DNA of 34,436 nt from Burkholderiales bacterium (GTDB lineage: Bacteria > Pseudomonadota > Gammaproteobacteria > Burkholderiales > Usitatibacteraceae), in assembly GCA_043780475.1 (NCBI GenBank), contig JAYWCO010000451.1:1-34436 (forward strand). Reading direction: 5' to 3'. Positions 5,696-33,219 of the stretch are shown piece after piece. Below the pieces are notes generated by a model. That model worked only from the letters and a program-made list of their open reading frames with translations. It did not search any database and was not told where the DNA came from. The number at the start of each line of letters is the position of its first letter. Position 1 is the stretch's first letter. The position numbers were made by a program, and so were the translations under genes.

Positions 5696-6394
5696 TCATT
5701 TGAGCAGCTCTTTGTAACTCGGCGGCGGCACGGAACGGTTCTGAATATTGACCACCAGCAAGCGTGCGTTGTCGCCATATTCCAGACCGACCGCCACCGG
5801 CGGCGTGACATCATTTGAACGCGCGCCCAACGATTCAGCAGGCCATTGATCACGCCAATTGCCGGCCTCATCAAGGTAGCGGAACCGTCCATTGCTGCCG
5901 GCCCATGAGAACGCGGTATAGTATGACTTTGCACCGGCAAATTTATCAAAAGCGGCCGTGCTCTGTGCGCTGGCTTCGGCGGCGCTTTCATACTGCAATT
6001 CAGTTTCATTGGTGCGTGAATTAAACGCAAGCGACCAGGCAAATATGCCGGGCCCGGCGCTATTGGTGTTTAGCGACTGCAGGGTCAAGCCCGACAGGCT
6101 GCGCGCACTACCGGTTAATGGCGGCCCCTGCTCCGAGCCTAATGGTGGAATGATCGCCAAGCCCACCGTGTCGCGAAACCAGCCCAAGCGTATCGCCGCA
6201 TCGCGCGAATAAGTGGTTTCAGCTTGGCCAACTTCGGCCAGGCGCATGGCCTGCGCCACACCGGACACCAGGATGCCGATCACCATAAAAAATACCGTCA
6301 TGGCCGCCATGATTTCAATCAGCGTAAAGCCGCTGTGTTGAGATGGGTACGACGCTGAGCTGGAAAGATGGCAATAACGCGAAGGGGTTAGCAA
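5696..6394 (-). CDS. Pseudopilin / type IV pilin-like protein with prepilin-type N-terminal methylation motif (GspJ-sized, 232 aa)
   Basis: Class III signal ...QHSG|FTLIEIMAAMTVFFMVIGILV (Gly-1, Phe+1, Glu+5, hydrophobic helix). The only in-frame start is TTG at 6394, giving an unusually long 22-aa leader. Confidence 0.7.
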   Translation of the reverse strand: MLTPSRYCHLSSSASYPSQHSGFTLIEIMAAMTVFFMVIGILVSGVAQAMRLAEVGQAETTYSRDAAIRLGWFRDTVGLAIIPPLGSEQGPPLTGSARSLSGLTLQSLNTNSAGPGIFAWSLAFNSRTNETELQYESAAEASAQSTAAFDKFAGAKSYYTAFSWAGSNGRFRYLDEAGNWRDQWPAESLGARSNDVTPPVAVGLEYGDNARLLVVNIQNRSVPPPSYKELLK

Positions 6395-6480
6395 AATATG
6401 AAGGTTTCTGTGTTGGCGATTTTATGTTTCTGTTTTTATATTTACGGGAGTCTTCATGATAACCCGTCATTAGATGGCGT

Positions 6481-6496
6481 ACAAATTTCGTGCCAA
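6481..6496 (-). promoter_or_regulatory. Candidate sigma-54 (-24/-12) promoter facing the pseudopilin gene
   Basis: The reverse strand reads TGGCACG-AAAT-TTGTA, against consensus TGGCACG-N4-TTGCW. The only deviation is T for C in the -12 GC. It lies about 85 nt upstream of the pseudopilin TTG start. Confidence 0.35.
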
Positions 6497-6545
6497 CTGT
6501 GTTTTTACAAGTACGGGCCACCATTTTCGTGATTTATACTGTGTC

Positions 6546-7853
6546 ATGCCTATTCTTTCAACTCATCATCATGTCATCAAGTGCGGCGGTCTTCCCCAAC
6601 GCTGCGCCCCACGCGCCGCCGGTTTCATTCTGGTTGCCACGCTATTCGCGATTGCGGTGATTGCCATCGGAGCCGCTTATTTTGCGTCGCGAGTAGAGGG
6701 GCTACAAACGGCTGCGTTTCAACAACAAACCGTCACTGAAGCTGAACGCGAAGTGGTGTCGATTGGCCAGGCGCTGATCCAGGCGGTGCTGCTTAACCCC
6801 ATTACCGAGCGGGGCTTGGTCATAAAAGACGCGCCTGATGAGCCGTTATTGCTGGACGGGCGCTTTTATCGAATGGGCGATAAAACCCAAATTGCGATAC
6901 AAGACGAGCGTGGGCTTATGAGCCTTAACATCAACGATGATCTCCAGCTGCGGCGCTTTTTTAGTGCGGCAGGCCTGCCGGTTGAACGCCATGATCGTCT
7001 ACTTGACACCCTGCGTGACTATGTTGATGTGGATGATTTTAAACGCTTGAACGGTGCGGAACGGCGCGATTATATTGAAGCCAAATTACCGCCACCGGCG
7101 AATGATTTTTTTTCCTCACGCGATGAGTTAAGACGTATCCCCGGCTGGCGTGAATTGCTCGCTGAGCTGGATGCGCGCGGTAAACCTGGTGCGGCCGAAC
7201 GGTTTCTGGGCTATTTCAGCGCGCACCGAATGGCCGCGATCAATTTGAATACCGCGCCGCGTCTGGTGGTGCAATCTCTGGCTGACATTGACCAAGCGCG
7301 GACGCGTGCGCTATTGGATCAACGTCGGCTGGCGCCATTTCAGAGCGTCGCAGAACTAGGCCTGTTTACGAACGGCCCGATAGATCTCGACACGATCCAG
7401 CTAGTGGGTGCTAACACTTGGCGACTTACCTATCAGCGGGACGATCTGGCGTTCCTGATAGAATGCCGATTGGTTATTACGCCAGCCGCGAGCGATAAAG
7501 CAGCACAGGTGAATGAGTGTCGTCACCGGCCGCGAAATAGCCTCGCAGATGATGATGATGTTGAAGACTTTGCGCGTGTTTTCAGTACCCCGTTTAGTGC
7601 CCGTTTTTCGTTATCAACGCCTGCTTCCGATACCAACTCTGATCGCGTGCTTAAAAACTCGCCTTCGAAAAATTCATCTTCGGGTTTTCAATCTCAGTCA
7701 TCTTTTTCACCTTTATCACCTACCAACCGTGAAGTTAGCCAACGTGCCTCCGATAACCGCTCGCTCTCCTGGCTCAAGCTCAAAGCCGGGCTGGTGGTCA
7801 GCCCTGCTAATGCGAATGCCCTTGCCGTTCCCATTCCTGCACCGCGCCCATAA
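6546..7853 (+). CDS. GspK-like minor pseudopilin (T2SS protein K family) with a Ser-rich C-terminal tail
   Basis: N-terminal hydrophobic segment RAAGFILVATLFAIAVIAIGAAY. GspK-type acidic motif LRDYVDVDDFKRLNGAERRDYI...ANDFFSSRDELRRIPGW. HhH-like AINLNTAPRLVVQSL. Start set at ATG 6546. Confidence 0.7.
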   Translation: MPILSTHHHVIKCGGLPQRCAPRAAGFILVATLFAIAVIAIGAAYFASRVEGLQTAAFQQQTVTEAEREVVSIGQALIQAVLLNPITERGLVIKDAPDEPLLLDGRFYRMGDKTQIAIQDERGLMSLNINDDLQLRRFFSAAGLPVERHDRLLDTLRDYVDVDDFKRLNGAERRDYIEAKLPPPANDFFSSRDELRRIPGWRELLAELDARGKPGAAERFLGYFSAHRMAAINLNTAPRLVVQSLADIDQARTRALLDQRRLAPFQSVAELGLFTNGPIDLDTIQLVGANTWRLTYQRDDLAFLIECRLVITPAASDKAAQVNECRHRPRNSLADDDDVEDFARVFSTPFSARFSLSTPASDTNSDRVLKNSPSKNSSSGFQSQSSFSPLSPTNREVSQRASDNRSLSWLKLKAGLVVSPANANALAVPIPAPRP

Positions 7854-9084
7854 CGGCCTGGCGCTGGCTGAGCACTATCGGCAAACCAGCGATGGCGTCG
7901 CCTCGCCTGACGCGATCAGCCGCCGCACTTATTGGATTTTGTCGCGTTCACTTTATCGCGTCAAAACGATTACATTAGCAAATGTAGCCGCCAATCGGCG
8001 TGCCGCAGCGATCCAGCTTGAGCTGACGGCGTGGACACCGTTTCGCCAGACCGCTCACTACGTCATACCGCAGGGTGCAGGCGATACCCATGCATTGCTC
8101 ATGGCGTGGGATCAGAACGCGGTTGAAGTCGCCCAGGCCGAGGCCGGGGTAGCCGAGCGGGAGCTACCGGTGATCCCCGAAGGCGCACTAAAGTCACTCG
8201 CGGCCAGCAGCGGTGATGGCGACGGCGTAAGCGTCCACACCTGCCTGGATGGCATCGAAGCTATCGTGATGCAGCATGGCATCGTCGCGGCAAGCCAGTG
8301 GTGGAGTGCTGCACCTAATCAAACCATCTGGGCTAACTTCCAACGTACCCATCGTACGCAGGGTATCCTAAGTGTGGGGGCCAACGGGTTCAATGTGGCA
8401 CCGCGCAATGAAACTTTCCCAAGTCCGCAAATGGCAACTTGGCTGGCACGTCCACTAGGCTATGCGCGTGGACAGTCCCATGCACCAGACGCTCAGCGCG
8501 AAATCTGGATCGTGGCTGCTGCTGCACTGCTGCTGGCTATGCCGACGATTTGGTTTGCCAATGATTATCGCCGCCATGCGGTGGCTTTGTCGGCGGCTGA
8601 AAGCCGACTCACCAGCACCGAACTCGAGCTGGATGGCTTGCTCGGCGCACGTGGCAATGCCGTCGGCAGCCTCGCCCGTGCGGAGCGTTTTGACGCCGCT
8701 TTTAATCAGATTGATGCGCTTTTGATGTTTGCCGAGATCAGCCGTGCGCTAGGAACAATTAGCAAACCGGGTGCGCTGGTGTTGACGGAATGGGATTGGC
8801 GGGGCGATGGCAGCGATCTTCGCAGCAAACGCCTCAAAATGTTATTTACCACCACCGGCCCACCACCTGCCGCAACGGCGCTGGTCAAAGCTTTCGAAGC
8901 CAACCCAGCGTTTCGTGATGTGCAAGTCAATAGTGAAGGCTCTCGCTTGAGCGTTGAGCTTCGTGTTGAGCAGGTGCGTGCTGATACCGTTAAGGTCGCT
9001 GTGCCTGTTGCTGCGTCAACACCCCCTACAGCAGCTCCTCTAGCAACCCCGGGCGCCGCGCCTGCGTTGCCAACGGGCGGATAA
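7810..9084 (+). CDS. GspL/PilM-PilN-like bitopic inner-membrane assembly protein (tentative)
   Basis: Call rests on topology and position only. It has a cytoplasmic part of about 220 aa, one TM (IWIVAAAALLLAMPTIWFAN), then a coiled-coil and an alpha/beta periplasmic part. It lies between the K-like and M-like genes. Start taken at ATG 7810 or 7816; the upstream part of the track ORF looks non-coding. Confidence 0.5.
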   Translation: MRMPLPFPFLHRAHNGLALAEHYRQTSDGVASPDAISRRTYWILSRSLYRVKTITLANVAANRRAAAIQLELTAWTPFRQTAHYVIPQGAGDTHALLMAWDQNAVEVAQAEAGVAERELPVIPEGALKSLAASSGDGDGVSVHTCLDGIEAIVMQHGIVAASQWWSAAPNQTIWANFQRTHRTQGILSVGANGFNVAPRNETFPSPQMATWLARPLGYARGQSHAPDAQREIWIVAAAALLLAMPTIWFANDYRRHAVALSAAESRLTSTELELDGLLGARGNAVGSLARAERFDAAFNQIDALLMFAEISRALGTISKPGALVLTEWDWRGDGSDLRSKRLKMLFTTTGPPPAATALVKAFEANPAFRDVQVNSEGSRLSVELRVEQVRADTVKVAVPVAASTPPTAAPLATPGAAPALPTGG

Positions 9085-9087
9085 GCG

Positions 9088-9759
9088 ATGAGCGCTCGAA
9101 GTCAACTCACCGCCGCCTTAACCGATGCTCGCGAGCAATGGCGCGGGAATCCGCGCCTGCGCTATGGCGTGTATGTCATCGCGGCGATTATGTGTATTTA
9201 CGGTATTTTAGTGCTGCGCGATGCCGTCACCGCCAAGCGCGAAGCCTGGGCCGCCACCGAGGCACGTATTGCGCGTGCCCGCGCATTGGCCAATTCAGGC
9301 GATTGGGTAAATCGTGCCAGTGAAGTTAAAGCTGCGATGAGCGAATTTGAAAGTTTGCTCTGGAAGGAAGGCAGCTTAGGGTTGGCGCAAGCAGCTGTTC
9401 AAGAGTCTGTTACGCGCACCTTGACCAGCGCCGGGCTAACCGCGCGGCAGGTTAAAGTGACCGTCAGCGATGCCCCGCTGTCAGCCGAGATGCCTGAAAT
9501 AGTCCCGATCCGCGCTCGTGTCCTAATCGATTTTCGGCCCTTGGCTGTGAATGCCTGGCTCGCCGCGATGGCGCGTGATGTGAGTGAAAAAAGGCCGGCC
9601 ATGGTGATTGAGAGTCTGACCATCAGAGGCGCACCGGCGCCGGTTGCAGATATCGAATTAGTGGCGTATGCGCTACGACCCGAAGCGATTCCGATCACTA
9701 ACAATATCAAGTCCGCCGGGAACACAGCAACGGGAAACACAAGCGGAGGCGCAAAATGA
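9088..9759 (+). CDS. GspM/PilO-like inner-membrane assembly protein (tentative, 223 aa)
   Basis: Short cytoplasmic N-terminus, single TM (YGVYVIAAIMCIYGILVL), periplasmic domain. It starts 3 nt after the L-like stop, and its stop overlaps the next start (ATGA at 9756-9759). Confidence 0.5.
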   Translation: MSARSQLTAALTDAREQWRGNPRLRYGVYVIAAIMCIYGILVLRDAVTAKREAWAATEARIARARALANSGDWVNRASEVKAAMSEFESLLWKEGSLGLAQAAVQESVTRTLTSAGLTARQVKVTVSDAPLSAEMPEIVPIRARVLIDFRPLAVNAWLAAMARDVSEKRPAMVIESLTIRGAPAPVADIELVAYALRPEAIPITNNIKSAGNTATGNTSGGAK

Positions 9760-10217
9760 GGCCGCGCCAAATTTTTATCTACTGGTTATGGGCGGTCGCG
9801 ATTTTAGGGCTGGTGGTCGTGCTACTAGTGCCCGCACCGGCCATCGATCCAGCTACTCTCACCGTAGCGCGTGCTGATGAAGGTTGGCGCGTGACTCGCT
9901 TGAACATCACCAACCGTGCCACGGATAATTTGGCTGAACTGACCCGCAGTAATTTATGGGGCGGGCAATTTCAAACCGACGGTGAGGTTGATGAACGCGC
10001 CAAACGCTGGCGCGTGGCCGGCGTGGCCGGTCAAGCCCGCGACCGTGTAGTGCTGGTACAGTTTGGCGATGATCGAATTTTACCGTTGAAGGTAGGTGAA
10101 AAATTTCCGGACGGCACACCGATCGTGGATATCAAGGACAATGGTGTGTGCGTCAATATTGAGGGCAAGAAGCGTTTGCTACCGCTGGCCGAACAAACAA
10201 TTCCGATTGTATGGTGA
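9756..10217 (+). CDS. GspC(HR domain)/PilP/GspN-like secretin-coupling protein (tentative, 153 aa)
   Basis: N-terminal TM (IFIYWLWAVAILGLVVVLLV) followed by a small beta-rich domain: RWRVAGVAGQARDRVVLVQFGDDRILPLKVGEKFPDGTPIVDIKDNGVCVNIEGKKRLLPL. GGAGG RBS at 9745-9749. It overlaps the secretin start by 7 nt. Confidence 0.45.
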   Translation: MRPRQIFIYWLWAVAILGLVVVLLVPAPAIDPATLTVARADEGWRVTRLNITNRATDNLAELTRSNLWGGQFQTDGEVDERAKRWRVAGVAGQARDRVVLVQFGDDRILPLKVGEKFPDGTPIVDIKDNGVCVNIEGKKRLLPLAEQTIPIVW

Positions 10218-12475
10218 TGATGAAAACAAAATTGATGAGAACCCGGTCGGCCCACGCGGTCATGTTGGCTTTGGGTTTAGGTATAGGGTTACAACTGGGC
10301 GGCTGCGCAACCGAGCCAGTGATTCCCGCCAAACTGGACCTGCCGCCACGCGCGCCGTCACTATTTGACATCGCACCCAGCGCTGTGACCGCGAGCGTTG
10401 CCACCAATAGCGCCAAGAGCGGTGGCACCGCCATCATCGCGGACAATCCCAAACCGCCGTTATTGCCCAACAAGCCTGCGCAAGCGGCTGCTACGGTTGT
10501 TACTTCAGGGCAATCAGCCGATGTCACGCTTAATTTTGATTCGTTGCCGCTGCCCGCATTTATCCAGACAGTCTATGCCACCGTGCTAAAACGCAATATC
10601 AGTATTGACCCTGCAGTGATGGCGCGAAAGGATTTAGTTACGTTGCGCAGCGGTAAAGCATTGACCGCGGGCGAAGCTGAAAATAGTGCGCGTCTGTTGC
10701 TCAAAAGCTACGGCATTGCGGTGCAGGATATTGGCGGTTTGATTCGCATCGTGCCGGACAGTATCAACACCGGCTACCTGCCTGAAATTCGCCGTGGCCG
10801 GGCGCTGCCGGATACGCCGTTACCGCTGCGTCCCGTGTTCCAGCTGGTAGAACTGCAAGCGGTGCGCAATACCGAAATCATCAGCTACATTAAAACGTTA
10901 TTCGGTGAAAAAATTCGCGTCACTGAAGATCCGATTCGCAATTCCCTGCTTCTGGCGGGCAATGGTGATGATGTGCAAGCCGCGCTGGAAGCGATTCAAA
11001 TGCTCGACCAGCCGCTGTTCAAAGGCCGCAACTCTATTCGCATCACCCCGCTGATTTGGTCGGCTGAGGAATTGGTTAAACGCTTGACCGAGATTTTGAC
11101 GCAGGAAGGTTATGCGGTAGGCACAACCACGCCCGGCTCGGTTCAATATCCGATCACGCTTTTGCCGGTAGCCGGTATCAATAGTGTGATTGTGTTTGCT
11201 CAATCCAAAGAGATCATCAACCATATCGCGGAATGGGCGCAGACGCTGGATAAACCCGCTGAAAAAAGTGTAGGGCGAAGCTTTTTTAGCTACCAGGTCC
11301 AAAATACCGATGCCTCGCGCTTAGCCGAAACGCTGCAACAATTATTGAGCAGCAGCGGCGCCAGCGGCAGCAACAAAGGCTTGGCCGCCGCGAATATGTC
11401 AAGTCCTAGTAACACCCCTTCCACCACCGCGACAGGCGCACCCACGGTGCGTGCCACCGGTAATGTAGTGGTTGATGCTGGCACCAACACCATCCTGTTT
11501 CGCGCCAACGGCGAGGACTATACCGACATGATTCGCCTGCTGCGCGAGCTGGATCGCCCCACTCGGCAGGTCTTGATTGAAGTCACTGTTGCTGAGGTAT
11601 CACTCGATGATACGACTGCGGTGGGGGTTGACTGGATATTCAAGGCGCTCAACCGAACCGGGCTCAATGTGACTTCGCTGGGCGGCAACACGGGCGTGGT
11701 TAACAAGGTCGATACCACCGCAACGGCGGCGGGTACTGGGGGAACCGCAACTACTCCTCCGGCCCCTCTGCCTAGCGGCATCGGCAGGTCTACCCTGTTA
11801 GGGGAAATCACTGGCTTTGTGGTGGGTCAACTTGATGGCAGCGGCAACCCTCGCGTGGTACTTTCTGCACTCGCTCAGCTGACTAAAACCAATATTTTAT
11901 CGACCCCGCGAATCCAGGCGCGTAATGGTGAAACCGCGACCATTCGTGTGGGTGACGAAGTGCCGATCAATACCGGTCAGCAAAGTACCGCTTCGGGCAC
12001 CATCACGACCACGCAATATCGCAGCACCGGCACGATCCTGCGCATCAAGCCGGTGGTGCATTCATCAGATCAGGTCGATATCGATATCAGCCAGGAAAAC
12101 AGCATTGTCAAAAGTGTCGCTGGCGCAAGCGGGATCAATCCCACGATCAGCACCCGCGCCCTAGATACCAAGCTGACGCTGCGTCATGGCGAGACTTTTG
12201 TGATGGGCGGCTTAATATCCAACACCACTTCCAACACCGATAGCGGAGTGCCGTTCTTGAAGGACATTCCGATTTTGGGTTATGCGTTCAAAAAGAACTC
12301 GACCACGCTCGCACGGACTGAATTGATTGTGCTCATCACGCCCTACATCATCAATGATTCAACTGAGGCACGCGCCGTGACGGATGCGTTCCGGAAACAG
12401 CTCGGCCCGTGGGCGCAAGCGCAACCCAAGCTGGCGCCTGAGCAAAAAACGATGGCGGCGCCCAGCAACGAGTAA
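10211..12475 (+). CDS. Secretin (GspD/PilQ family) with lipoprotein signal (liposecretin-like, 754 aa)
   Basis: Lipobox LGIGLQLGG|C. N-domain repeats. C-terminal secretin domain with GVPFLKDIPILGYAFK and TELIVLITPYII. Two Ser/Thr/Ala/Gly-rich inserts. Confidence 0.9.
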   Translation: MVMMKTKLMRTRSAHAVMLALGLGIGLQLGGCATEPVIPAKLDLPPRAPSLFDIAPSAVTASVATNSAKSGGTAIIADNPKPPLLPNKPAQAAATVVTSGQSADVTLNFDSLPLPAFIQTVYATVLKRNISIDPAVMARKDLVTLRSGKALTAGEAENSARLLLKSYGIAVQDIGGLIRIVPDSINTGYLPEIRRGRALPDTPLPLRPVFQLVELQAVRNTEIISYIKTLFGEKIRVTEDPIRNSLLLAGNGDDVQAALEAIQMLDQPLFKGRNSIRITPLIWSAEELVKRLTEILTQEGYAVGTTTPGSVQYPITLLPVAGINSVIVFAQSKEIINHIAEWAQTLDKPAEKSVGRSFFSYQVQNTDASRLAETLQQLLSSSGASGSNKGLAAANMSSPSNTPSTTATGAPTVRATGNVVVDAGTNTILFRANGEDYTDMIRLLRELDRPTRQVLIEVTVAEVSLDDTTAVGVDWIFKALNRTGLNVTSLGGNTGVVNKVDTTATAAGTGGTATTPPAPLPSGIGRSTLLGEITGFVVGQLDGSGNPRVVLSALAQLTKTNILSTPRIQARNGETATIRVGDEVPINTGQQSTASGTITTTQYRSTGTILRIKPVVHSSDQVDIDISQENSIVKSVAGASGINPTISTRALDTKLTLRHGETFVMGGLISNTTSNTDSGVPFLKDIPILGYAFKKNSTTLARTELIVLITPYIINDSTEARAVTDAFRKQLGPWAQAQPKLAPEQKTMAAPSNE

Positions 12476-14841: not shown

Positions 14842-14915
14842 TGGTGCCCACAGTCTGGATTGAACAGACGACCTACCGCTTACAAAGCGGTTGAAAGGCG
14901 ATTTTCTATACGCAC
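14842..14915 (-). pseudogene. Degenerate tRNA-Thr(UGU): 3' 50 nt intact, 5' part non-canonical
   Basis: The reverse strand from 14891 to 14842 reads ACCGC-TTTGTAA-GCGGT (anticodon UGU), AGGTC, GTCTG-TTCAATC-CAGAC, TGTGGGC-A-CCA. The 5' part GTGCGTA-TA-GAAA-ATCGCC-TTTC pairs poorly with the acceptor 3' strand (one mismatch, three G-U) and lacks the D-loop GG. Confidence 0.6.
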
Positions 14916-15162
14916 GATTCCAAAATTTATCGAGAAAAATTGGTTTTAATTCCAATAGTTACCTACGGAATTTCAAAATTTATTGTAACTCAATGTGTTG
15001 CGCGTTTTGCCCATTTAATGGCCAGCAAATGGCCACGCATGAAAATTGAAGGTGCCGAGTTAAAGCGAAAAACCGGCAAAATTTGGAAACTGGTAAGACT
15101 CAAATGCTCAATAATTTCACCGCGTATTTTCCCGTCATGCCATAGCTTGTTGGCGCCAATGC

Positions 15163-15294
15163 GCGTTTGACCTGAGCTACCGATTTTGACTGACCCACCG
15201 CAAATTGGCGAAACCCCTGAATAGGCAACGGTTCGCGAGGGCTTCTGCTGGGTCAATAAAATGTCGGCAAGTGGGTCAATTTGGTTTCGGCGGC
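15163..15294 (+). repeat. Left copy of a long imperfect inverted repeat (partner at 25257-25370)
   Basis: Hand alignment of 15201-15294 to the reverse complement of 25257-25349 gives roughly 85 percent identity. This includes a perfect 23-mer, ccctgaataggcaacggttcgcg (15215-15237 vs 25313-25335). It contains three copies of a ~19-nt motif GTGGGTCAAT-N5-6-TCGG at 15180-15198 (inverted), 15248-15267 and 15271-15290. Confidence 0.8.
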
Positions 15295-16334
15295 AACAGC
15301 ACTAGCCATAAATCCAGTACCGGAAAGCCTTAGGCAGATTCGAGGATCCGGAATCGCGAGTTAAAAAAGCCATGAAAGTTGATCAAGTACCAGCCGCCAA
15401 TCCAACCGACTTGGGGTAACTCGCTTGTCAACTATTTGCTTTACATCTACGAAAGAGAAACAATTTTGATGTCAAAAATTGCAACACACACTAACTATTG
15501 ACTAGAAATTTGGTGTTCATGGCCGGACGGTGAATTGCGTTGGGCAAGCAATGGTAATCGTATTTGCATGCGCCTTGGCCAGCGTGTCCACCCAGTCAAA
15601 GGGTATATTGCCGACGTGCGTTCGTTTCCTCGATGGGGCAAAGGTTTAGTCTTGGCCAACTTTGGTTGTCGCGTTTCTAGAAAATCAAGCCGAAACCAAA
15701 GTGTGAGCGGCGATTCTGCAAAAGAACGCAGTTACTGGCTTCGGGTATAGAGCGCTGAGATATCCGAGCCCAGTCTATTTTGTAGCGATGGATTGGTCGG
15801 TGCGTTGAATTGCAGTGAAATTTGAGCCCAGTTGAGCAGTAAATTTTATAAAAAATAGCCTCACATCAAACCACAATTCCATTTTATTTTACGCTGCGAG
15901 ACGGAGTGGCGAGTTGGGTTAGCATTCTCAGCTGTCAACGCTTCTTCCTAGCCAAATTGAGTGCACTACGCATGCTGATACCTCTGATAAGCTGGTCGAT
16001 GCTGGACTGGCTGGAGGGAACAACCCGACCGCAGAAGCCTGGAAACGGAAGCCATCCCCACTCAGAAACACGGTCACCGATTCGGAAAATTGCGCTGATC
16101 TGAGCACTAATCCCGCCTCAACCCGGACCGCCGTTAGCTCAAATCCACTGTCCGGCGCGGCCTTCTCAAACCGAGTTTTTTGGAGCGGTGTCGCTAACTG
16201 TCCTCCATCCTAGGCAGGCTTGTTGCCAGTCGCCGCCGAAAAGCCAGGTCGTTTTCGTCGTTAGCTTTGCGCTCCAGCAGTAGCACGTCTTTCTGTTGCA
16301 TCGATTCTGGCGGTGCCGATGTCGTCGTCACAAT

Positions 16335-16796
16335 TTACTGAAACGGAACGCCGCCACTATTGGACAGCTGGCTTTCTGCCTCTCCCGCAAGCAGCAAATA
16401 TTCACTGTAAAGCCGGCCGCTCATATCGGCTTCGAGCGGGCAGTCGTGTACTACAAACCCCGGATGATGACTGGACTTTGATGTCGCGGCATCCAACAAG
16501 CAAACCATATCGTCTATAAGCATCTCAAGGACCTGGTAAGCCTCACCCTCCCGAGCAAGCTGAAAGGGTCTCATTTCACTATCCGATATGAAGCGGCCAT
16601 GCTCGCCTTCGCCTAGTATCCTGGCAGCCACTAACGCCGTCGGCGCTTTGATTTGTTCCCGTCGCTCGTCACGCTCTATTCCGCGCTTTACAACGGTGAC
16701 TTTGTGTTCATTTCGGTCGCGAGTCAATAACTTTTTCCTCGCTTGGGCTCGTTGCAGGGGATGCACAAGCGCATCGGTTAGCCAAAGCGCCCGCAC
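16335..16796 (-). CDS. Hypothetical protein (153 aa from a GTG start); possibly a 5'-damaged gene
   Basis: ORF only, with no recognisable motif. The frame stays open and protein-like for 21 more codons upstream (VIYIVGNGADDQPQDSLKSAK) without any ATG/GTG/TTG. Confidence 0.35.
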   Translation of the reverse strand: MRALWLTDALVHPLQRAQARKKLLTRDRNEHKVTVVKRGIERDERREQIKAPTALVAARILGEGEHGRFISDSEMRPFQLAREGEAYQVLEMLIDDMVCLLDAATSKSSHHPGFVVHDCPLEADMSGRLYSEYLLLAGEAESQLSNSGGVPFQ

Positions 16797-16897
16797 TTTA
16801 GCCGATTTTAGCGAATCTTGCGGCTGATCGTCTGCACCATTACCAACGATATAAATGACCTACGCAACAGCGCAGCTTCCGCTCTGCATACCCCAAT

Positions 16898-18100
16898 TCA
16901 AATTAATCCAATGTCTTTTGGCTGGGCACCGACGAAGATTTTTGTTAGCTGCGTATTGCTTAATCCGTACATACGCTGAAACAAGCCACCGAATACCGCG
17001 CGATATTCGTTTAGCACCGGATAATCACGATTCTGGAACAAAGATTTCTGTTCGACGGCGACATTTTCGCCAGCAATTTGCCCACCCTTAATCGATCCGC
17101 CCAGCACCCAATAGACGCTGCCATGCCCATGATCCGTACCACGGTTACCGTTCTCACGAAAAGTGCGGCCGAATTCGCTGACCACCACGACCACCGTGTT
17201 GCGCCATTCGTTACCCATTTCGTTGGCAAATGCGGCAAGTCCGCGACCAAGCTCATCAAAACGGCCAGCCAGATACCCAGTAGCGTTACCTTGGGCAACG
17301 TGGGTATCCCAACCGCCGACATCGACAAATCCAATGTTGTGCTTGTCCTTCATCAGCTTGGCGATGCGGCGCGCTTCCAGCTCAAAACCTTTTGCTGAAA
17401 TCGCATTGCGGCTCGCCCCGTCCATTTCAGCCGTCAATTCACGCATCACTTCATCACGAATAGTAAAACCCTCGCCAACGCGCTGCTCAAGCGGCGTTCC
17501 CCGGTACATCGCCGCAATCATTGCCGTTTGCCTGGCATCTAGCGCGGGTTTTGAAACAGAGCGCAACGCGGTGTTGGGGATTTGCATGCTGCCCTGTAGC
17601 ACGATGGGCAATTGATCCGTAAACGCAATGGCACCTTGGCTATTCAAAGTAACAGCAAGCCGATTCAGAAAGCCCGACTGATAATTGCGCCCCTGATTGA
17701 GTGGTTGGCCCAGTTCAATGCTGTCTTGCGTTTCAAAATGACTGCGCGACAGGTCGTCAATTCCGGCAAATGGGATAAAGGCGGCCTGTCCGGCAGTAAA
17801 CAGCGGATAAATCGATTCGCGCAGTGTGGGATGCAGCCCCCAATCTGTACTGAGCGGCAGTGCCGTATTGGCCACAGTGCCGGGTGCAGGAATGGCGATA
17901 TTCGGGCGTGCCTCATAGTAAAACTTGCTCGATATCGGTACCAGCAAGCTGGCTGCATCATAGCCACCTCGCATGAATACCACCAGCAAGCGGTTGCTGG
18001 TGGTCGGCGCGGCGAACAATCGCCCCACGCGCAGCGTAGAAGTGGCCGCATAAGCCGTCGCGGCTACAGCCGCGCATTTCAATAATTGACGACGATTCAT
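16898..18100 (-). CDS. DUF1501 family protein (sulfatase/phosphatase-like fold) with Tat signal (400 aa)
   Basis: Twin-arginine leader MNRRQLLKCAAVAATAYA. DUF1501-type motifs LVVFMRGGYDAASLL and DVGGWDTHVAQG. GGAGA RBS 8 nt upstream. Confidence 0.85.
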   Translation of the reverse strand: MNRRQLLKCAAVAATAYAATSTLRVGRLFAAPTTSNRLLVVFMRGGYDAASLLVPISSKFYYEARPNIAIPAPGTVANTALPLSTDWGLHPTLRESIYPLFTAGQAAFIPFAGIDDLSRSHFETQDSIELGQPLNQGRNYQSGFLNRLAVTLNSQGAIAFTDQLPIVLQGSMQIPNTALRSVSKPALDARQTAMIAAMYRGTPLEQRVGEGFTIRDEVMRELTAEMDGASRNAISAKGFELEARRIAKLMKDKHNIGFVDVGGWDTHVAQGNATGYLAGRFDELGRGLAAFANEMGNEWRNTVVVVVSEFGRTFRENGNRGTDHGHGSVYWVLGGSIKGGQIAGENVAVEQKSLFQNRDYPVLNEYRAVFGGLFQRMYGLSNTQLTKIFVGAQPKDIGLI

Positions 18101-18145
18101 CTCAACATCTCCGGGGACAATGACAGGTATTCATGCAGCGGTTAC

Positions 18146-19747
18146 TTACCGATACATCATTTCAGGCGCGGACAATAGCACCATATTCCATTCTTGCGGT
18201 GTGGCAGATTGTTCTAATGCCTTGCGCGTAGCCTGATTGAGGCTGCGTTCAATTTGATTGTAGTAAAGCGCATTGGCAAGTTGTGGGAAGGCTGGCTTTT
18301 CAACAGGCTGGGGCCCTTCCGTCTTAAATAGTCCAGCACTGCCTGAACCAATCGCCTTGGCAATTTCAAATCGGGTGTTCATCTGTCCCGGGCTGGCCCA
18401 TGCCGACTCAATCATCGAATAACCGTCTGGCGTTTGACGGCCAAACAGCGGTTGCCCCATGCGGTTTAGCCAATTTTGCATCGGGCCTGCGTTGAGAATT
18501 GGTTTGTCGTCGTAAGCCAACCGCACCGCCGACACCACATACTGCATCGGCGTTTTGAATTTATGGCCAAGCGAGGCGTTGAATTCATTGCTCGCAAACA
18601 GCGTCCTAAGCGTGGCTGAAATATCGCCATCAGTCTGCAAAAAAGTGACCGTCATCCGGTCAACGAGCGCAGCGGGCGGTTGGTCAGCGACAAAGTAAAT
18701 GGCGAGCTTGCTGCAAACGTAGCGCGCGGTTGACGGATGGCGCGCTAGCAAGCCAATAGCCTCATTGACTTCAGCAAGCCCACGCCCTTTTAATGTGCGT
18801 CCTAGCAGCAATTTGTCGCCATAGTCATGGCGATTCGGGTTGAATTCAAAAATGCCGCTACGCACATATTGGGCTGCAATTTCTTTGCGCACATTGGGTT
18901 TTGTAGTGCCCAGATTGACCCCTACTCCAGTCAGCACGCGTGCCAGCTCCTGCACGTCCTTCTGGCTGTAGCCGCCGCCAACGCCGAGCGTGTGCAGTTC
19001 CATCAGCTCACGAGCGTAATTTTCGTTGATACGGTTGACCGCATTTTGCTCATTGTCCAGATAACGGATCATTGCCGGATGAAACACTGTCGCGGTCAGC
19101 AGCTCGCGAAATTTGCCCAGGACATGCGGGCGAATAGCGGATTCTTCAAAATCGCCAATCATTGCGCGAATATTGTGCTTGCCCTGATGGATGCTGAAAT
19201 GATTCATCCAGAACCAGACCATTTGCTCCTGTAACTGGTTGGGCGAGTACACCGCGCGCATCAGTGCGCGCGTTGACGCTTCGCGGGCAACGCGGTTCAT
19301 CTCATTCTGATAAGCCTGCTGCGCCACTTTTTTGGCGTCGTCATCCTTGATGATGTCGGCGTCTTTACGACGTTGCTCCAGTTCCGCAACCAGCGACGGC
19401 ATGTCTTGTTTGACGATAGTCATATCGGTAATTTGCTGGCTGATCGCCGCTGGCAATGCCCGCTTTTGCGTCAATTGCGCATCGAGATAACGCGACACGC
19501 CAATCTGGTCAACTTGCTGCATCGTACTTGCATTCACACCCCACGTAATGCGATTAATGACGTCTAGTGGCTTGCCTGCCACGACAGCCAAGGCGCTCTG
19601 CATGGGCGGCTTGCTGGGCGCGTCGACAGTGGCGCAACCCGATAACGCTAACATTAGCAACAGTGCTCCACGCGGTAACGCACCTGACTTGCTCGACAGT
19701 TGCTCGAATCCAAGCAGTCGATTAAAACGGTGTAAAAAAATCAGCAT
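18146..19747 (-). CDS. DUF1800 family protein, probable lipoprotein (533 aa)
   Basis: Start at ATG 19747 with a GGAGA RBS. Lipobox LLMLALSG|C. DUF1800-type motif ELHTLGVGGGYSQKDVQELARVLTGVG. Paired with DUF1501 as is usual for these families. Confidence 0.8.
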   Translation of the reverse strand: MLIFLHRFNRLLGFEQLSSKSGALPRGALLLMLALSGCATVDAPSKPPMQSALAVVAGKPLDVINRITWGVNASTMQQVDQIGVSRYLDAQLTQKRALPAAISQQITDMTIVKQDMPSLVAELEQRRKDADIIKDDDAKKVAQQAYQNEMNRVAREASTRALMRAVYSPNQLQEQMVWFWMNHFSIHQGKHNIRAMIGDFEESAIRPHVLGKFRELLTATVFHPAMIRYLDNEQNAVNRINENYARELMELHTLGVGGGYSQKDVQELARVLTGVGVNLGTTKPNVRKEIAAQYVRSGIFEFNPNRHDYGDKLLLGRTLKGRGLAEVNEAIGLLARHPSTARYVCSKLAIYFVADQPPAALVDRMTVTFLQTDGDISATLRTLFASNEFNASLGHKFKTPMQYVVSAVRLAYDDKPILNAGPMQNWLNRMGQPLFGRQTPDGYSMIESAWASPGQMNTRFEIAKAIGSGSAGLFKTEGPQPVEKPAFPQLANALYYNQIERSLNQATRKALEQSATPQEWNMVLLSAPEMMYR

Positions 19748-19987
19748 AAATTCTCCGCATGAATCAGCATAAATCTCAAAATCAATGACTTGCCAGCAGC
19801 GCGCAATTGCCAAGAACATAGTTAACGCTAAAAACACCAGTGAAGTGCACACGAGTTGCAACAACTTATGACAACACTGGCAACGATGATGAACTTCCGT
19901 CGTTTGGTGTTCATCGTCTGCACGCTCACAAGGCGACCTTGCCCCTGTTTAACGTATCCCTTAACCAGGCCGGTTATGCGGTCTGTG

Positions 19988-20359
19988 TTATCTGATCCGC
20001 ATGCCTTGCTGCTTCAAACTGCATCGGACGACGTAGTCCAGCGCCCCGGTCAGCAGTAAAACAACGAGCAGGGTAGGGCACAGCATTTGCAGCGACTGGC
20101 AAATCGCGATCACTTTTCGGCGGTCGCCGCGATCGGCGAGTAAGCCATCTGCGAGCGTCAACAGCCAAATGGGCGCTCCCAAAGCAAATGCGTCTAGACC
20201 AATCAGAAACGACGAAGCGCCGAGACTCAATATCAGCCACGGCGGCGCCACTTGCTGTGCCCACGTGCTAATGTTGGCAAGCAGACTGGCGAACCAGAAA
20301 GTACCAAAGCGGCGGGTAAATATGAGGCTAGTCGATTCGCGAAAGGCAATCTTCTTCAT
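19988..20359 (-). pseudogene. 5' stump of an MFS transporter gene (EntS/MFS_3-like)
   Basis: MKKIAFRESTSLIFTRRFGTFWFASLLANISTWAQQVAPPWLILSLGASSFLIGLDAF...LADRGDRRKV matches the first 2-3 helices of MFS_3-type exporters. The frame terminates after about 123 codons, against the 400+ expected. Confidence 0.6.
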
Positions 20360-20634
20360 GACGATGCAAGCTAACACAGCACGAGCCTGTTGCTCTGTCG
20401 TTTACGCAACCGAGCCTAGTTTTTCTAAACGAAATCGCCAGATCGACCAACTCACAGCGTCAATCCCAAGCCTTCAACCGCGACAAAACTTTGTTGCGAC
20501 GCTCTGGGTTGAACCTAAACGTACCCGCTAATTTGCCAAATGGAGACAACGCGCCCACCGTTGTTTTTAATTCCTTGGGCAATCCTGAGCCATGCAAACT
20601 ATAAACTGCGGGTAGACTCACTTAGGGACTAATT

Positions 20635-20714
20635 TTAAGTATTCGTTTGTCAGTGCGGATTAACTGATCGCGGATTAAGTATTCGTTTGTCAGTGCGGAT
20701 TAACTGATCGCGGA
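20635..20714 (+). repeat. Perfect 40-bp tandem duplication (2 units)
   Basis: ttaagtattcgtttgtcagtgcggattaactgatcgcgga occurs at 20635-20674 and again at 20675-20714. Each unit carries two gcggatt sub-motifs. Confidence 0.95.
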
Positions 20715-21047
20715 TTTTTAGCGGCGGCGGAAGTGAAATTGATGGACTTTGGCCCTCCAAATTACGTGCAGTTTGAAGTGAAAGTAAATCATCGCGATGA
20801 AAGTTCGTTCCTTGCATTGATAGCGTGATGAGATGCGTGCGGAGATGGCTGCGTCTGCCGATTTGGCAACCCCTACCGATGAGAGTAGTGAAGCGTTGCA
20901 GCTCAACACTGAGAATTCAATTCGCTAGCTGGCACTAGACAACCATTGCTTTATTGGATGGTTTTAAATTCCGATCAAATTTTTACAGCAGGCAAACGAC
21001 GATAATCATAAAAAATTTGATGATCGTGTTTGTATACTGTCGTCAGT

Positions 21048-21893
21048 TCACTTTACCACTGGCGCTTTGTGTTTCTTTTTTGTGGCCGGTGGACTCTTTT
21101 GCTCGGCCTCTTCCTTCGCTTCGGACGCTTTTTGCTTATCAATGCGGTGTTGTTCAACTTCCTTCGTTAATTCTTCTTTACGAGCTTCGATCTTCGCTTC
21201 GTTCATGGTCCGGCGATAGGCCTCCGGGGCGCGATCTACTTTCTTTGGTGGCTTTTTGGGGTCGTGTGACACATAGGCAAATTGCCCGGCATTGATGATG
21301 ACTTCGCCAGCGGGATTTTTGAGCGACGTACTGCCACTGTTTACTTTTTCATAGGTGCCCGGTTCGCCGCCAACAGCTTTTTCGCCTGGTCCCGGAATCG
21401 GGATGTGCAACGGTTCATGGTCAGTGCCCCGAATCCCAATCGTCGCCGAAGGTGTTCGGATCGCATAATGATTCGCGTTGTTCCGGCCAATCCAGCCGGT
21501 AATCGAGCGCATCGCGCCATAGGCCATTGACATGATCACGCCGTCGTCTTTATCGCCTTTAGCCCGATAAAACTCGACTAACACCTTCGAATTCGGGCGA
21601 AATGCCATGTAGCCGTGGTCGTCGGTACGAACATGCAATTCACCGTCACGCCCGGTCATGATGGTTTCGCCCTCAATGATCTTATCGTTAACGTGTACCA
21701 AGCGTGTTTGGCCTTTTGTGTCGATAACCGATACCTTGCCTTCCACCAATTCCACCACGCCAAATTCATTCTCAGCCCATGCCACCGGCGCGGCCACCAG
21801 GACACAACTTAAAATGAGTAAGCTGAATGTGCCGGTAAACCGGGCCACCACCGTCAAAAAAAGATTCTTTAAAAACATCGAGCGCAGACGCAT
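21048..21893 (-). CDS. Secreted FecR-domain protein with Lys/Glu-rich C-terminal tail (281 aa)
   Basis: Signal peptide ...LVAAPVAWA|EN. FecR-type beta-rich core (GKVSVIDTKGQTRLVHVNDKIIEGETIMTGRDGELHVRTDDHGYMAFRPNSKVLV). Charged coiled tail. AGGAG RBS 8 nt upstream. Confidence 0.75.
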   Translation of the reverse strand: MRLRSMFLKNLFLTVVARFTGTFSLLILSCVLVAAPVAWAENEFGVVELVEGKVSVIDTKGQTRLVHVNDKIIEGETIMTGRDGELHVRTDDHGYMAFRPNSKVLVEFYRAKGDKDDGVIMSMAYGAMRSITGWIGRNNANHYAIRTPSATIGIRGTDHEPLHIPIPGPGEKAVGGEPGTYEKVNSGSTSLKNPAGEVIINAGQFAYVSHDPKKPPKKVDRAPEAYRRTMNEAKIEARKEELTKEVEQHRIDKQKASEAKEEAEQKSPPATKKKHKAPVVK

Positions 21894-21933
21894 GATGGTG
21901 ACTCCTATAAAAACGACAGAAAATGAATACCGT

Positions 21934-22734: not shown

Positions 22735-22807
22735 TCAACCGTTCACATTCGTTAATACGTTAGTCGGAAAACAACAATACGGAGCTTTGTTTGGCGTCAA
22801 TTACCGC

Positions 22808-23026
22808 CTACACACGTCTCCGCAATCGGTGAGTCACGGTTCGCCGGTGATCGCGACGGCTTTTGATCGCGTCGTGCTGCGCTTTGGTGGCGTCGGGCTT
22901 TGTGACGCTGTCCTTATTTTTAACCTCTTTTGCGGCAGGGATTGGGGGCGGCGTTTCCTGAGCTTGCGTGAGTGTGTTAACACTAACGAGCAAGCCTGTC
23001 AAAATCAACAGCAGGTATTTTTTCAT
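22808..23026 (-). CDS. Small secreted Pro/Lys-rich basic peptide (72 aa)
   Basis: GGAGA RBS 8 nt before ATG 23026. Signal peptide MKKYLLLILTGLLVSVNTLTQA|QETPPPIPAAKEVKNKD..., with an Arg-rich tail. Confidence 0.5.
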   Translation of the reverse strand: MKKYLLLILTGLLVSVNTLTQAQETPPPIPAAKEVKNKDSVTKPDATKAQHDAIKSRRDHRRTVTHRLRRRV

Positions 23027-23155
23027 GATGTAAGTCTCCATTTGTTACAATATTTTAGATCGGAGGTGATGGTGTCGTAATAATATGTTGTTGTTGAGTT
23101 ATGAACAAACTTTTACAAATTTACTCATTCTCACGATTCAAAAAATAGAGGATTT

Positions 23156-23365: not shown

Positions 23366-23468
23366 CGTGTCGCCTGCTTGCAACAGGGGAAAGCATCTGT
23401 CGTTGACATCCATCGAGCCCCTGTTAGAGTATGTAATCATTCATTAATTCTCATTGCAAGGCGTTAGC

Positions 23469-25127: not shown

Positions 25128-25256
25128 AAACTGTTCGATGGCGAAGTGCCCGCATGTAGACTAATCTGTCGGCCAGCAGACTGGACTGCAGAGATCACGC
25201 CCCCGGCTTGCTGGCCGCTTGGGATATGTTACGACTGTCCCTTACGAACAATTGTG

Positions 25257-25452: not shown

Positions 25453-25496
25453 ATCAAGGTGCGGTACCACCAGAATATTTTGAGCGCCCCTATTTT

Positions 25497-33203: not shown

Positions 33204-33219
33204 GACCAGTTCAACAAAA

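What the first reader, a model, noticed from the sequence alone, without database searches (positions are those of the whole stretch)
5696..12475. Orphan T2SS/type-IV-filament assembly module (J-like pseudopilin <-> K-L-M-C/P-liposecretin) lacking motor, platform, major pilin and peptidase
Seen: one pseudopilin with a G|FTLIE motif lies on the minus strand. On the plus strand an operon runs from a clear GspK-like gene through three bitopic membrane proteins to a secretin carrying a lipobox. The three membrane proteins have the size, order and topology of GspL, GspM and GspC/PilP. The genes are translationally coupled: a 3-nt gap at 9085-9087, an ATGA overlap at 9756-9759, and a 7-nt overlap at 10211-10217. 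Established: functional T2SS/T4P machines need a GspE/PilB ATPase, a GspF/PilC platform, a major (pseudo)pilin and a prepilin peptidase, and GspK normally works with GspI and GspJ. None of E, F, G, H, I or O is in this window, and the flanks are unrelated housekeeping genes (lptC, dsbD). Inference: this is either a satellite outer-half module that borrows a motor encoded elsewhere, or a reduced secretin system with a new function.
Basis: partly seen in the sequence, partly recalled or inferred. Interest (0 to 1): 0.65.

Follow-up and report, generated by a model that had tools for sequence, protein, structure and literature searches.

The report
Fragment of a dispersed type II secretion system
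The six genes are real type II secretion parts (tip pseudopilins J and K, inner-membrane proteins L, M and C, and a lipid-anchored outer-membrane pore), but they look like one piece of an ordinary secretion machine scattered over several loci, not a new orphan system.

Summary
In detail: the coordinates, gene junctions and the absence of E/F/G/H/I/O from the window are all as described. The window is a whole 34,436-bp MAG contig.

All six gene identities are supported. J has a conserved G|FTLIE prepilin site. K passes both Pfam T2SSK models. The Pfam-less "L" models as a GspL-like protein: its best fold matches are PulL, EpsL and GspL cytoplasmic domains and the XcpY periplasmic domain. M is XpsM-type. 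The 153-aa protein is a short GspC. D is a GspD-type secretin with a conserved lipobox.

The "orphan / new function" reading is not supported. In five distant lineages the same L family sits at the L position of contiguous E-F-G-H-I-J-K-L-M-C-D operons. In all betaproteobacterial relatives examined the layout is lptC<-J<- ->K-L-M-C-D<-dsbD. Most relatives whose contig reaches beyond dsbD then carry tRNA-Thr, I and H. The window keeps only the 3' half of that tRNA, so a rearrangement removed H-I from here.

All six genes are under purifying selection (dN/dS about 0.1). The best reading is one locus of a dispersed, sequence-divergent, Xps-order T2SS. I could not inventory E/F/G/O on the MAG's other contigs.

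The parts
5696..6394 (-). GspJ-like minor pseudopilin. It has a 21-aa leader (TTG start), the prepilin-peptidase site G22|F23-T-L-I-E27, and a hydrophobic N-terminal helix.
   Evidence: Pfam N_methyl E 4.4e-6 and TIGR02532. The motif is conserved in all relatives. Its best blastp hit is the J-position gene of complete operons. A profile of the family hits L032_J and L033_J at about 1e-39. There is a weak match to three GspJ PDB chains on the F-x-Y-x-D-x-x-G-x-W-x-x-x-W-P segment. dN/dS is 0.11.
6474..7853 (+). GspK-like minor pseudopilin. It has a prepilin-like site AAG|FILVA without Glu5, and a roughly 110-aa low-complexity C-terminal tail that varies among relatives. The real start may be Met25 at 6546.
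   Evidence: Pfam T2SSK_1st E 4.2e-10 (40.7 bits, cutoff 26.2) and T2SSK E 1.6e-5 (25.6 bits, cutoff 24.2). NCBIfam GspK E 1.5e-11, below its cutoff. dN/dS 0.16.
7810..9084 (+). GspL-like assembly-platform protein. It has an N-terminal cytoplasmic actin-like domain (about residues 40-185), one TM helix (about 232-252), a long coiled helix, and a C-terminal periplasmic alpha/beta domain (about 300-386).
   Evidence: No Pfam, NCBIfam or PDB sequence hit. AlphaFold model with mean pLDDT 67. Best Foldseek hits are PulL 5tkw, EpsL 1yf5, GspL in complex with GspE 4pht, and the XcpY periplasmic domain 5n7l/6ghu. hhalign against four annotated GspL proteins gives E 2.2e-4 over 278 collinear columns. 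The gene sits at the L position of complete T2SS operons.
9088..9759 (+). GspM of the XpsM type: a bitopic protein with its TM helix at about residues 26-43.
   Evidence: NCBIfam NF040576 T2SS_GspM_XpsM E 3e-8 (33.5 bits, cutoff 60). All 12 family members tested match it, best 8e-10. Pfam T2SSM_b is weak, matched by 6 of 12 members. The profile hits the M-position genes of L032 and L033 at 1e-46 to 1e-49.
9756..10217 (+). Short GspC: an N-terminal TM helix, a linker and an HR (PilP-like) beta domain. It has no PDZ or coiled-coil domain.
   Evidence: The profile of the window clade hits the PDB GspC chain 7oio at E 0.029 over the HR domain. It also hits L033_C at 1.9e-17 and L032_C at 1.8e-13. 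L032_C passes the Pfam T2SSC gathering score (28.4 vs 27) over positions 1-139 of the 141-position model. There is a faint PilP hint from TIGR03021.
10211..12475 (+). GspD-type liposecretin. It has a signal peptide with lipobox L-G-G-C32 and Ala at +2, then N0, three Secretin_N domains and the secretin domain.
   Evidence: Pfam Secretin 1.3e-45, Secretin_N in three stretches 1.8e-25, and GspD N0 3.3e-6. TIGR02517 GspD scores 348.7 bits (cutoff 351.35), against 176.7 bits for PilQ (cutoff 284). The lipobox Cys is conserved in all 12 family secretins examined, including those of complete operons.
14842..14915 (-). The 3' half of tRNA-Thr(TGT); the 5' half has been replaced. It marks the breakpoint beyond which relatives carry the GspI-like and GspH-like genes.
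   Evidence: Rfam tRNA 37.2 bits in E-value mode. ARAGORN finds no tRNA in the window. Relatives have an intact tRNA-Thr(TGT) at this position, followed by I, H and tRNA-Thr(CGT). The alignment shows identity only from the anticodon stem to the CCA end. There is no second copy in the window.

Best explanation
The region is one locus of a type II secretion system whose genes are dispersed in this betaproteobacterial (GTDB Burkholderiales) lineage.

Shown: it encodes two tip pseudopilins (GspJ-like, GspK), the inner-membrane assembly-platform proteins GspL, GspM and a short GspC, and a lipoprotein GspD secretin. K-L-M-C-D are translationally coupled in one operon and J is divergent. The same protein families form complete E-F-G-H-I-J-K-L-M-C-D operons in other lineages.

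Inferred mechanism, from established T2SS knowledge:
- The liposecretin is taken to the outer membrane by Lol and needs no pilotin, as for HxcQ.
- The HR domain of GspC contacts the N0 domain of the secretin and so links the two membranes.
- GspL and GspM pair through their periplasmic domains.
- The actin-like cytoplasmic domain of GspL clamps a GspE ATPase that sits on GspF.
- A prepilin peptidase cleaves J at G|FTLIE, and K, H and I at their equivalent sites.
- The H-I-J-K tip complex primes a GspG pseudopilus, which pushes folded periplasmic proteins through the secretin.

E, F, G and the peptidase, and in this genome also H and I, must be supplied from other contigs. A rearrangement at tRNA-Thr(TGT) next to dsbD explains why H-I are not adjacent here.
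For: Component identities.

Complete contiguous operons containing the same L, M, C and J families.

The split layout lptC<-J<- ->KLMCD<-dsbD is conserved across about 25 contigs down to 33% L identity. I and H follow dsbD in L007/L014 (one contig), L008, L013, L019, L021, L024 and L025.

Truncated tRNA-Thr at the expected H-I junction.

Purifying selection on all six genes, comparable to lptC and dsbD (dN/dS 0.11-0.16 against L011, where dS is 0.63-1.19).

The prepilin site of J is conserved although its leader varies.

The lipobox is conserved.

Multi-locus T2SS with a peptidase shared with type IV pili is documented for Legionella, which has five loci and pilD inside pilBCD (PMC6617341).
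Against: No gspE, gspF, gspG or prepilin peptidase was seen within 10 kb of the module in any betaproteobacterial relative. The rest of this MAG could not be searched, so the existence of a dedicated motor is inferred and not shown.

The L assignment rests on a medium-confidence model (mean pLDDT 67) with modest Foldseek E-values (0.01-0.06) and a weak hhalign result (probability 45%). Pfam T2SSL and NCBIfam GspL do not recognise the protein (only 1 of 42 family members matches TIGR01709, at E 0.0035).

M and D score below their curated NCBIfam cut-offs.

No secreted substrate is identifiable in the window.
Confidence: 0.72

Rival explanations
1. Chimeric system: the betaproteobacterial clade has lost the dedicated E/F/G genes. 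The H-I-J-K plus L-M-C-D set is instead powered by the type IVa pilus motor (PilB/PilC), uses PilA or another pilin as the filament and PilD as the peptidase, and may display the neighbouring giant PilY1-domain protein.
For: E/F/G are absent from every +/-10 kb flank in the clade. In L008, L019 and L021 the H-I pair lies next to a TonB_C gene and/or a gene for a very large PilY1 beta-propeller protein. Sharing of the prepilin peptidase between systems is well known (PMC6668835).
Against: In every complete operon the L family co-occurs with its own E, F and G. In T2SS, GspL pairs specifically with GspE (established knowledge; PDB 4pht is among the fold hits). A tRNA-Thr(CGT) gene separates H-I from the PilY1 gene, so they are not one operon, and PilY1 normally belongs to the type IVa pilus minor-pilin operon. 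Absence within 10 kb says little, because dispersed T2SS loci are documented.
Confidence: 0.12
2. Motor-independent reduced secretin system: the secretin with C, L, M, J and K works as a passive or otherwise gated outer-membrane conduit, for example for polymer or slime export, with no pseudopilus piston.
For: Four of the five complete operons of the family are embedded in sugar-nucleotide, nonulosonic-acid and ABC2/Wzt polysaccharide export genes. A 2025 paper ties GspD secretins to slime secretion in cyanobacteria and myxobacteria (PMC12475490).
Against: The prepilin cleavage site in J and the cytoplasmic domain of L are retained under purifying selection, which only makes sense with a peptidase and an ATPase. 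The window module itself is not in a glycan locus. The complete operons do carry E/F/G.
Confidence: 0.08
3. Decaying remnant: a T2SS locus left behind after loss of the motor genes, no longer functional.
For: H-I were removed from the locus in the window/L011/L012 subclade. The tRNA is truncated and the right-hand flank is heterogeneous.
Against: All six ORFs are intact on many independent contigs. Their dN/dS of about 0.1 equals that of housekeeping neighbours. Translational coupling is preserved.
Confidence: 0.03

Closest known systems
Xps type II secretion system of Xanthomonas (xpsE-F-G-H-I-J-K-L-M-N-D)
   Same: The complete operons of this family have the same gene order, E F G H I J K L M C/N D, with the secretin last (the Xps order is from my own knowledge). 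The M protein matches the NCBIfam XpsM-type GspM model in 12 of 12 members.
   Different: L is not recognised by Pfam or NCBIfam GspL models. C is a short 150-aa form with only the HR domain. In the window lineage the operon is broken up: J is inverted, H-I lie beyond dsbD or are removed, and E-F-G are elsewhere.
Legionella pneumophila Lsp T2SS (five loci; PilD shared with type IV pili)
   Same: A functional T2SS encoded in several chromosomal loci flanked by unrelated genes, with the peptidase in the pilBCD operon (PMC6617341). This is the precedent for the dispersed reading.
   Different: The split points differ: Legionella has lspC, lspDE, lspF-K, lspLM and pilD as separate loci. Its components are canonical and recognised by HMMs.
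HxcQ liposecretin of the Pseudomonas aeruginosa Hxc T2SS
   Same: A secretin with an N-terminal lipoprotein signal, which in HxcQ makes it self-piloting (Viarre et al. 2009, cited in PMC6617341). Here the lipobox Cys is conserved in all 12 family secretins examined.
   Different: Lipidation and self-piloting are not shown here. The rest of the system is not Hxc-like.
Type IVa pilus alignment complex PilM-PilN-PilO-PilP-PilQ
   Same: The same architecture logic applies: L corresponds to PilM+PilN, M to PilO, the GspC HR domain to PilP, and D to PilQ. Foldseek also returns PilM (2ych, 3jc8) and PilO (2rjz). One family member carries the Pfam PilN domain.
   Different: The secretin is GspD-type (N0 plus three N domains; GspD model 348.7 bits against 176.7 for PilQ; no AMIN domains detected). 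K carries the T2SSK domains. The complete operons carry GspG (T2SSG domain).

Membership tests
Type II secretion system (Gsp/Xps) | GspD-type secretin: N0, N1-N3 and the secretin domain | tested here: met
   Pfam Secretin 1.3e-45, Secretin_N in three stretches, and GspD N0 27.3 bits (cutoff 27). TIGR02517 scores 348.7 bits, just under its 351.35 cutoff and about twice the PilQ score.
Type II secretion system (Gsp/Xps) | GspK minor pseudopilin (T2SSK domains, prepilin-like N-terminus lacking Glu5) | tested here: met
   T2SSK_1st 40.7 bits (cutoff 26.2) and T2SSK 25.6 bits (cutoff 24.2). The AAG|FILVA site is read from the sequence.
Type II secretion system (Gsp/Xps) | GspL: cytoplasmic actin-like domain that binds GspE, one TM helix, and a periplasmic ferredoxin-like domain | tested here: inconclusive
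   Sequence HMMs fail. Topology, fold matches (PulL, EpsL, GspL-GspE, XcpY), hhalign at E 2.2e-4 and probability 45%, and the L position in complete operons all agree. Binding to GspE was not tested.
Type II secretion system (Gsp/Xps) | GspM bitopic partner of GspL | tested here: met
The gene is in the right position and its single N-terminal TM helix can be read from the translation.
Type II secretion system (Gsp/Xps) | GspC with an HR domain linking the platform to the secretin | tested here: met
   The profile hits PDB GspC 7oio at E 0.029. Homology is also transitive: the window-clade profile hits L032_C at 1.8e-13, and L032_C passes the Pfam T2SSC gathering score.
Type II secretion system (Gsp/Xps) | GspE ATPase, GspF platform and GspG major pseudopilin in the same genome | not testable with these tools
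   They are absent from the window and from +/-10 kb in all betaproteobacterial relatives. The window is an entire contig and the other contigs of the MAG cannot be fetched. They are present next to the same L, M and C families in five other lineages.
Type II secretion system (Gsp/Xps) | Prepilin peptidase and cleavable pseudopilins (G|F-x-x-x-E) | tested here: inconclusive
   The substrate motif is present and conserved in J. No Peptidase_A24 gene is in the window. The rest of the genome was not searchable.
Type II secretion system (Gsp/Xps) | Secretion of folded periplasmic proteins | not testable with these tools
   This needs a secretome comparison of mutants. No candidate substrate was identified in the window.
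Type IVa pilus PilMNOPQ | PilQ-type secretin (AMIN domains; TIGR02515) | tested here: not met
   TIGR02515 scores 176.7 bits against a cutoff of 284, and no AMIN domain appears in the Pfam scan.
Liposecretins (HxcQ-like) | N-terminal lipoprotein signal peptide with a lipobox Cys, and no Asp at +2 | tested here: met
   LGGC32-A in the window. The Cys is conserved in all 12 secretins of the family examined. Actual acylation was not tested.

The most novel reading that the evidence does not exclude
The whole betaproteobacterial clade carrying the lptC<-J<- ->K-L-M-C-D<-dsbD layout has no dedicated GspE/F/G. Its tip-pseudopilin, platform and secretin set would then be driven by the type IVa pilus motor and peptidase, possibly to present or secrete the giant PilY1-domain protein encoded beside H-I. 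That would be a naturally occurring T2SS/T4P chimera.
Probability: 0.1. Interest if true: 0.7.

Novelty: new member of a known kind. Interest (0 to 1): 0.3.

Why it matters
The practical value is mainly for annotation. About 600 clusters (at 50% identity) of "hypothetical proteins" turn out to be the GspL of a sequence-divergent T2SS lineage with an Xps-like gene order and a liposecretin; one of them is a RefSeq Rhodoferax protein. Its M and C partners are also poorly recognised by current models. Tools that demand L/M hits or a single locus will under-call T2SS in many uncultured Burkholderiales.

The lineage also gives a clear example of an operon being taken apart: J is inverted, dsbD and tRNA genes are interposed, and H-I are removed at a tRNA breakpoint, yet every piece stays under selection.

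If the motor genes really are missing from this clade, which I think unlikely, it would be a natural test of how interchangeable the parts of type IV filament machines are.

Tried and rejected
- Sequence searches of the L family against Pfam, NCBIfam and PDB sequences gave nothing usable.
- tblastn of L against PLSDB plasmids found no match. megablast of the whole module against plasmids also found none.
- The first AlphaFold model, from 9 close sequences, was poor (pLDDT 53). Adding three distant homologues raised it to 67.
A PDB profile search and transitive Pfam evidence replaced it.
- The M profile against PDB sequences gave no hit. hhalign of M against enterobacterial GspM gave no signal, which fits M being the XpsM / 'M subtype b' kind.
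- I looked for H/I pseudogenes in the window with tblastn and found none.
- I tried to survey the family in JGI metagenomes with broad alignments. A narrower alignment returned only 10 loci, all with the split layout.
- I could not inventory E/F/G/O in the MAG.
- I considered a T4aP PilMNOPQ identity and rejected it on the secretin type and the K domain.
- I considered a pseudogenised remnant and rejected it on dN/dS.
- Rfam in gathering mode and ARAGORN both missed the truncated tRNA. Rfam in E-value mode found it.


Full report
**1. What is in the sequence**

They are a minus-strand pseudopilin at 5696-6394, and on the plus strand 6474-7853, 7810-9084, 9088-9759, 9756-10217 and 10211-12475.

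The gene junctions read as described:
- L and M are separated by 3 nt.
- M and C overlap in ATGA.
- C and D overlap by 7 nt, or by 1 nt if D starts at 10217, which is the start gene callers chose on most metagenome copies.

The 7810 start for the second gene is also the one gene callers used on five independent contigs.

The flanks are lptC-lptA-lptB-rpoN on the left and dsbD on the right. The window turns out to be a complete 34,436-bp contig of a MAG. "Not in the window" therefore means "not on this contig".

No T2SSE, T2SSF, T2SSG, GspH/I or A24 peptidase gene is present. Pfam scans of the other large ORFs show PTS-EIIA, HPF, DUF1501, DUF1800, FecR, CHASE2, an MFS fragment, a collagen-repeat ORF, a Crp-type HTH, ImuB and DnaE2. 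tblastn with every component of complete operons finds only J, K, L, M, C and D.

**2. Identity of each gene**

*J.* The pseudopilin has a significant N_methyl match (E 4.4e-6). Its G|FTLIE(I/M)(M/L)AA block is conserved in all relatives while the leader in front of it is not. Gene callers start the gene at an internal ATG and so lose the motif. The only in-frame start upstream is the TTG at 6394, which gives a 21-residue leader. Its closest equivalents in complete operons are the J-position genes. The family profile weakly touches three GspJ PDB chains, all on the same segment.

*K.* It passes both Pfam T2SSK models.

*L.* It has no Pfam, NCBIfam or PDB sequence match. An exhaustive HMM search shows a family of 609 representative clusters, annotated "hypothetical protein" wherever a name exists, including one RefSeq Rhodoferax protein. 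Of 42 members sampled, none hits a relevant Pfam family and one hits TIGR01709 GspL at E 0.0035. One further member carries the PilN Pfam domain.

The AlphaFold model built with three distant homologues added has mean pLDDT 67, and 80-90 in the N-terminal domain. It shows an N-terminal alpha/beta domain, a TM helix continuing into a long helix, and a C-terminal alpha-beta-beta-alpha-beta-beta domain.

Its best PDB fold matches are:
- PulL cytoplasmic domain (5tkw)
- EpsL cytoplasmic domain (1yf5)
- GspL bound to GspE (4pht)
- XcpY (GspL) periplasmic domain (5n7l, 6ghu)
- PilO

The earlier, poorer model gave PilM and the same GspL entries. The E-values are modest (0.01-0.06), so this is supportive and not conclusive. 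hhalign of the family against four annotated GspL proteins gives a collinear 278-column alignment at E 2.2e-4 and probability 45%.

*M.* It and all 11 relatives tested match the XpsM-type GspM model.

*C.* The 153-aa protein has a TM helix and a conserved beta-rich C-terminal domain. Its profile finds the GspC structure 7oio. It also finds the C-position proteins of complete operons at 1e-13 to 1e-17, and one of those passes the Pfam T2SSC threshold over the whole model.

*D.* It is a GspD-type secretin, not a PilQ-type one. Its lipobox Cys is conserved across the family.

**3. Context in other genomes**

The exact locus recurs on metagenome contigs. Homologous loci occur in four Burkholderiales MAGs and in many further betaproteobacterial contigs, at L identities from 78% down to 33%.

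All of them show lptC<-J<- ->K-L-M-C-D<-dsbD. L007 and L014 are the same contig (JBBRAM010000013.1). Ten distinct relatives have sequence beyond dsbD. Seven of them (L007/L014, L008, L013, L019, L021, L024, L025) carry two more pseudopilin genes there. These are best matched by the I and H genes of complete operons (I at 35% identity, E 6e-27).

The order in the five that were scanned for tRNAs is dsbD, tRNA-Thr(TGT), I, H, tRNA-Thr(CGT). In some, a TonB_C gene and/or a very large PilY1-domain gene follows.

The window, L011 and L012 lack H-I at this place. In L020 the Entner-Doudoroff genes (zwf, eda, edd) lie between dsbD and the tRNA, and the locus ends just past the tRNA, so H-I may follow there.

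In the window and L011 only the 3' half of tRNA-Thr(TGT) is left, from the anticodon stem to CCA. No second copy exists on the contig. L012 has no tRNA in the fetched stretch.

To the right of the breakpoint the window is heterogeneous: a 1.4-kb low-GC stretch without ORFs, gene fragments, a 69%-GC collagen-repeat ORF, and an imuB-dnaE2 cassette. The simplest reading is an insertion or rearrangement at the tRNA that moved H-I away in this subclade. This is an inference; the other end was not found.

**4. The decisive comparison**

Five distant members of the L family that lie on long contigs (about 24-27% identity to the window or to P0018) all sit in contiguous operons with the same order. 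That order is T2SSE, T2SSF, T2SSG-domain pseudopilin, three small pseudopilins, T2SSK protein, L, M, C, secretin.

Each window gene finds its positional equivalent there. So the L/M/C trio is the L/M/C of a bona fide T2SS lineage with an Xps-like gene order. The window carries the J-K-L-M-C-D part of it.

**5. Is the module alive?**

Against L011, where dS is not saturated (0.63-1.19), dN/dS is 0.11-0.16 for all six genes. For lptC and dsbD it is 0.08-0.13. The prepilin site, the lipobox and the translational coupling are all conserved. A decaying remnant is therefore unlikely.

**6. Mechanism**

Shown:
- the component set
- its membrane topology
- its homology to complete T2SS operons
- selection on every gene

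Inferred from established T2SS biology: the Lol-targeted liposecretin forms the outer-membrane gate. The GspC HR domain docks to N0. GspL and GspM form the platform, and the cytoplasmic domain of GspL holds GspE on GspF. After cleavage by a prepilin peptidase, the H-I-J-K tip complex nucleates a GspG pseudopilus that expels folded periplasmic substrates.

E, F, G, O, and here also H and I, must come from other loci. Dispersed T2SS genes with a peptidase borrowed from the pilBCD operon are documented in Legionella (PMC6617341). Exchange of peptidases between type IV filament systems is noted by Denise et al. (PMC6668835).

**7. What remains open**

I could not search the other contigs of this MAG. 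The existence of gspE/F/G there is therefore inferred (confidence about 0.7).

No E/F/G lies within 10 kb of the module in any betaproteobacterial relative. This leaves room for a less ordinary reading in which the clade uses the type IVa pilus motor (about 0.1).

Separately, four of the five complete operons are embedded in sugar-nucleotide, nonulosonic-acid and ABC-type polysaccharide export genes. That hints at a link between this T2SS lineage and surface glycans. I did not follow it up, and the window locus does not share that context.

**8. Verdict**

- The component calls are right.
- The "orphan module with a new function" interpretation is not supported.

This is a new, poorly annotated member of a known kind: one locus of a dispersed, sequence-divergent T2SS with a liposecretin. 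Interest is modest (0.3). Its main value is for annotating the GspL-like family and for showing how a secretion operon can be dismantled without losing its parts.

Noticed in passing
window 14842-14915 (-); compare L007 17073-17147, L008 16862-16936, L019 16823-16897: Only the 3' half of tRNA-Thr(TGT) remains next to dsbD; the 5' half is replaced by unrelated sequence, and L011 shows the same truncation. ARAGORN and Rfam in gathering mode miss it. It looks like an att-type remnant of an insertion or rearrangement at the tRNA.
   Followed up: partly
window 14916-34436: Everything to the right of the tRNA remnant is heterogeneous. It holds a 1.4-kb low-GC stretch (0.47) with no long ORFs, a DUF1501/DUF1800 pair, a 129-aa MFS_3 fragment (19988-20377), FecR, a CHASE2 sensor, a Crp-type HTH and an imuB-dnaE2 cassette (28455-33203, with a 298-aa ORF lacking any Pfam hit at 33220-34116). 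It may be an island, but no integrase or second att copy lies on the contig.
   Followed up: partly
window 26097-27452 (-): A 451-aa ORF with collagen triple-helix repeats (Pfam Collagen, E 1.7e-19) lies in a stretch of 68.7% GC, far above the window average of about 54%.
   Followed up: no
L015 14864-20806; L032 221-3975 and 14668-21158; L033 1-688 and 14265-18732: Complete T2SS operons of this family are embedded in sugar-nucleotide, nonulosonic-acid (NeuB, DegT, Epimerase_2, ManC) and ABC2/Wzt polysaccharide export genes in four of five lineages. This may link the T2SS subtype to surface glycans or glycoproteins.
   Followed up: no
L008 18484-21164; L019 18174-21218; L021 17917-21110: In relatives the H-I pseudopilin pair, flanked by tRNA-Thr(TGT) and tRNA-Thr(CGT), is followed by a very large PilY1 beta-propeller protein (up to 2583 aa). 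In L008 and L019 a TonB_C protein lies between them; in L021 the PilY1 gene follows directly. Whether it belongs to this system or to the type IVa pilus is unknown.
   Followed up: partly
L015 14864-16429; L017 14791-16368: A conserved gene of 521-525 aa with no Pfam match lies directly downstream of the secretin in two complete operons. It is a candidate accessory protein or substrate.
   Followed up: no
window 6308-6394 (-), and L001-L004: Gene callers start the J-like gene at an internal ATG (204 aa), which removes the conserved G|FTLIE prepilin site. The true start is probably the TTG at 6394, giving an unusually long 21-residue leader with little positive charge.
   Followed up: yes
window 7500-7853 (+): GspK carries a roughly 110-residue Ser/Pro-rich low-complexity tail. 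The tail is absent from the 326-350-aa K proteins of complete operons and variable among relatives. The L start codon lies 44 nt inside it.
   Followed up: no
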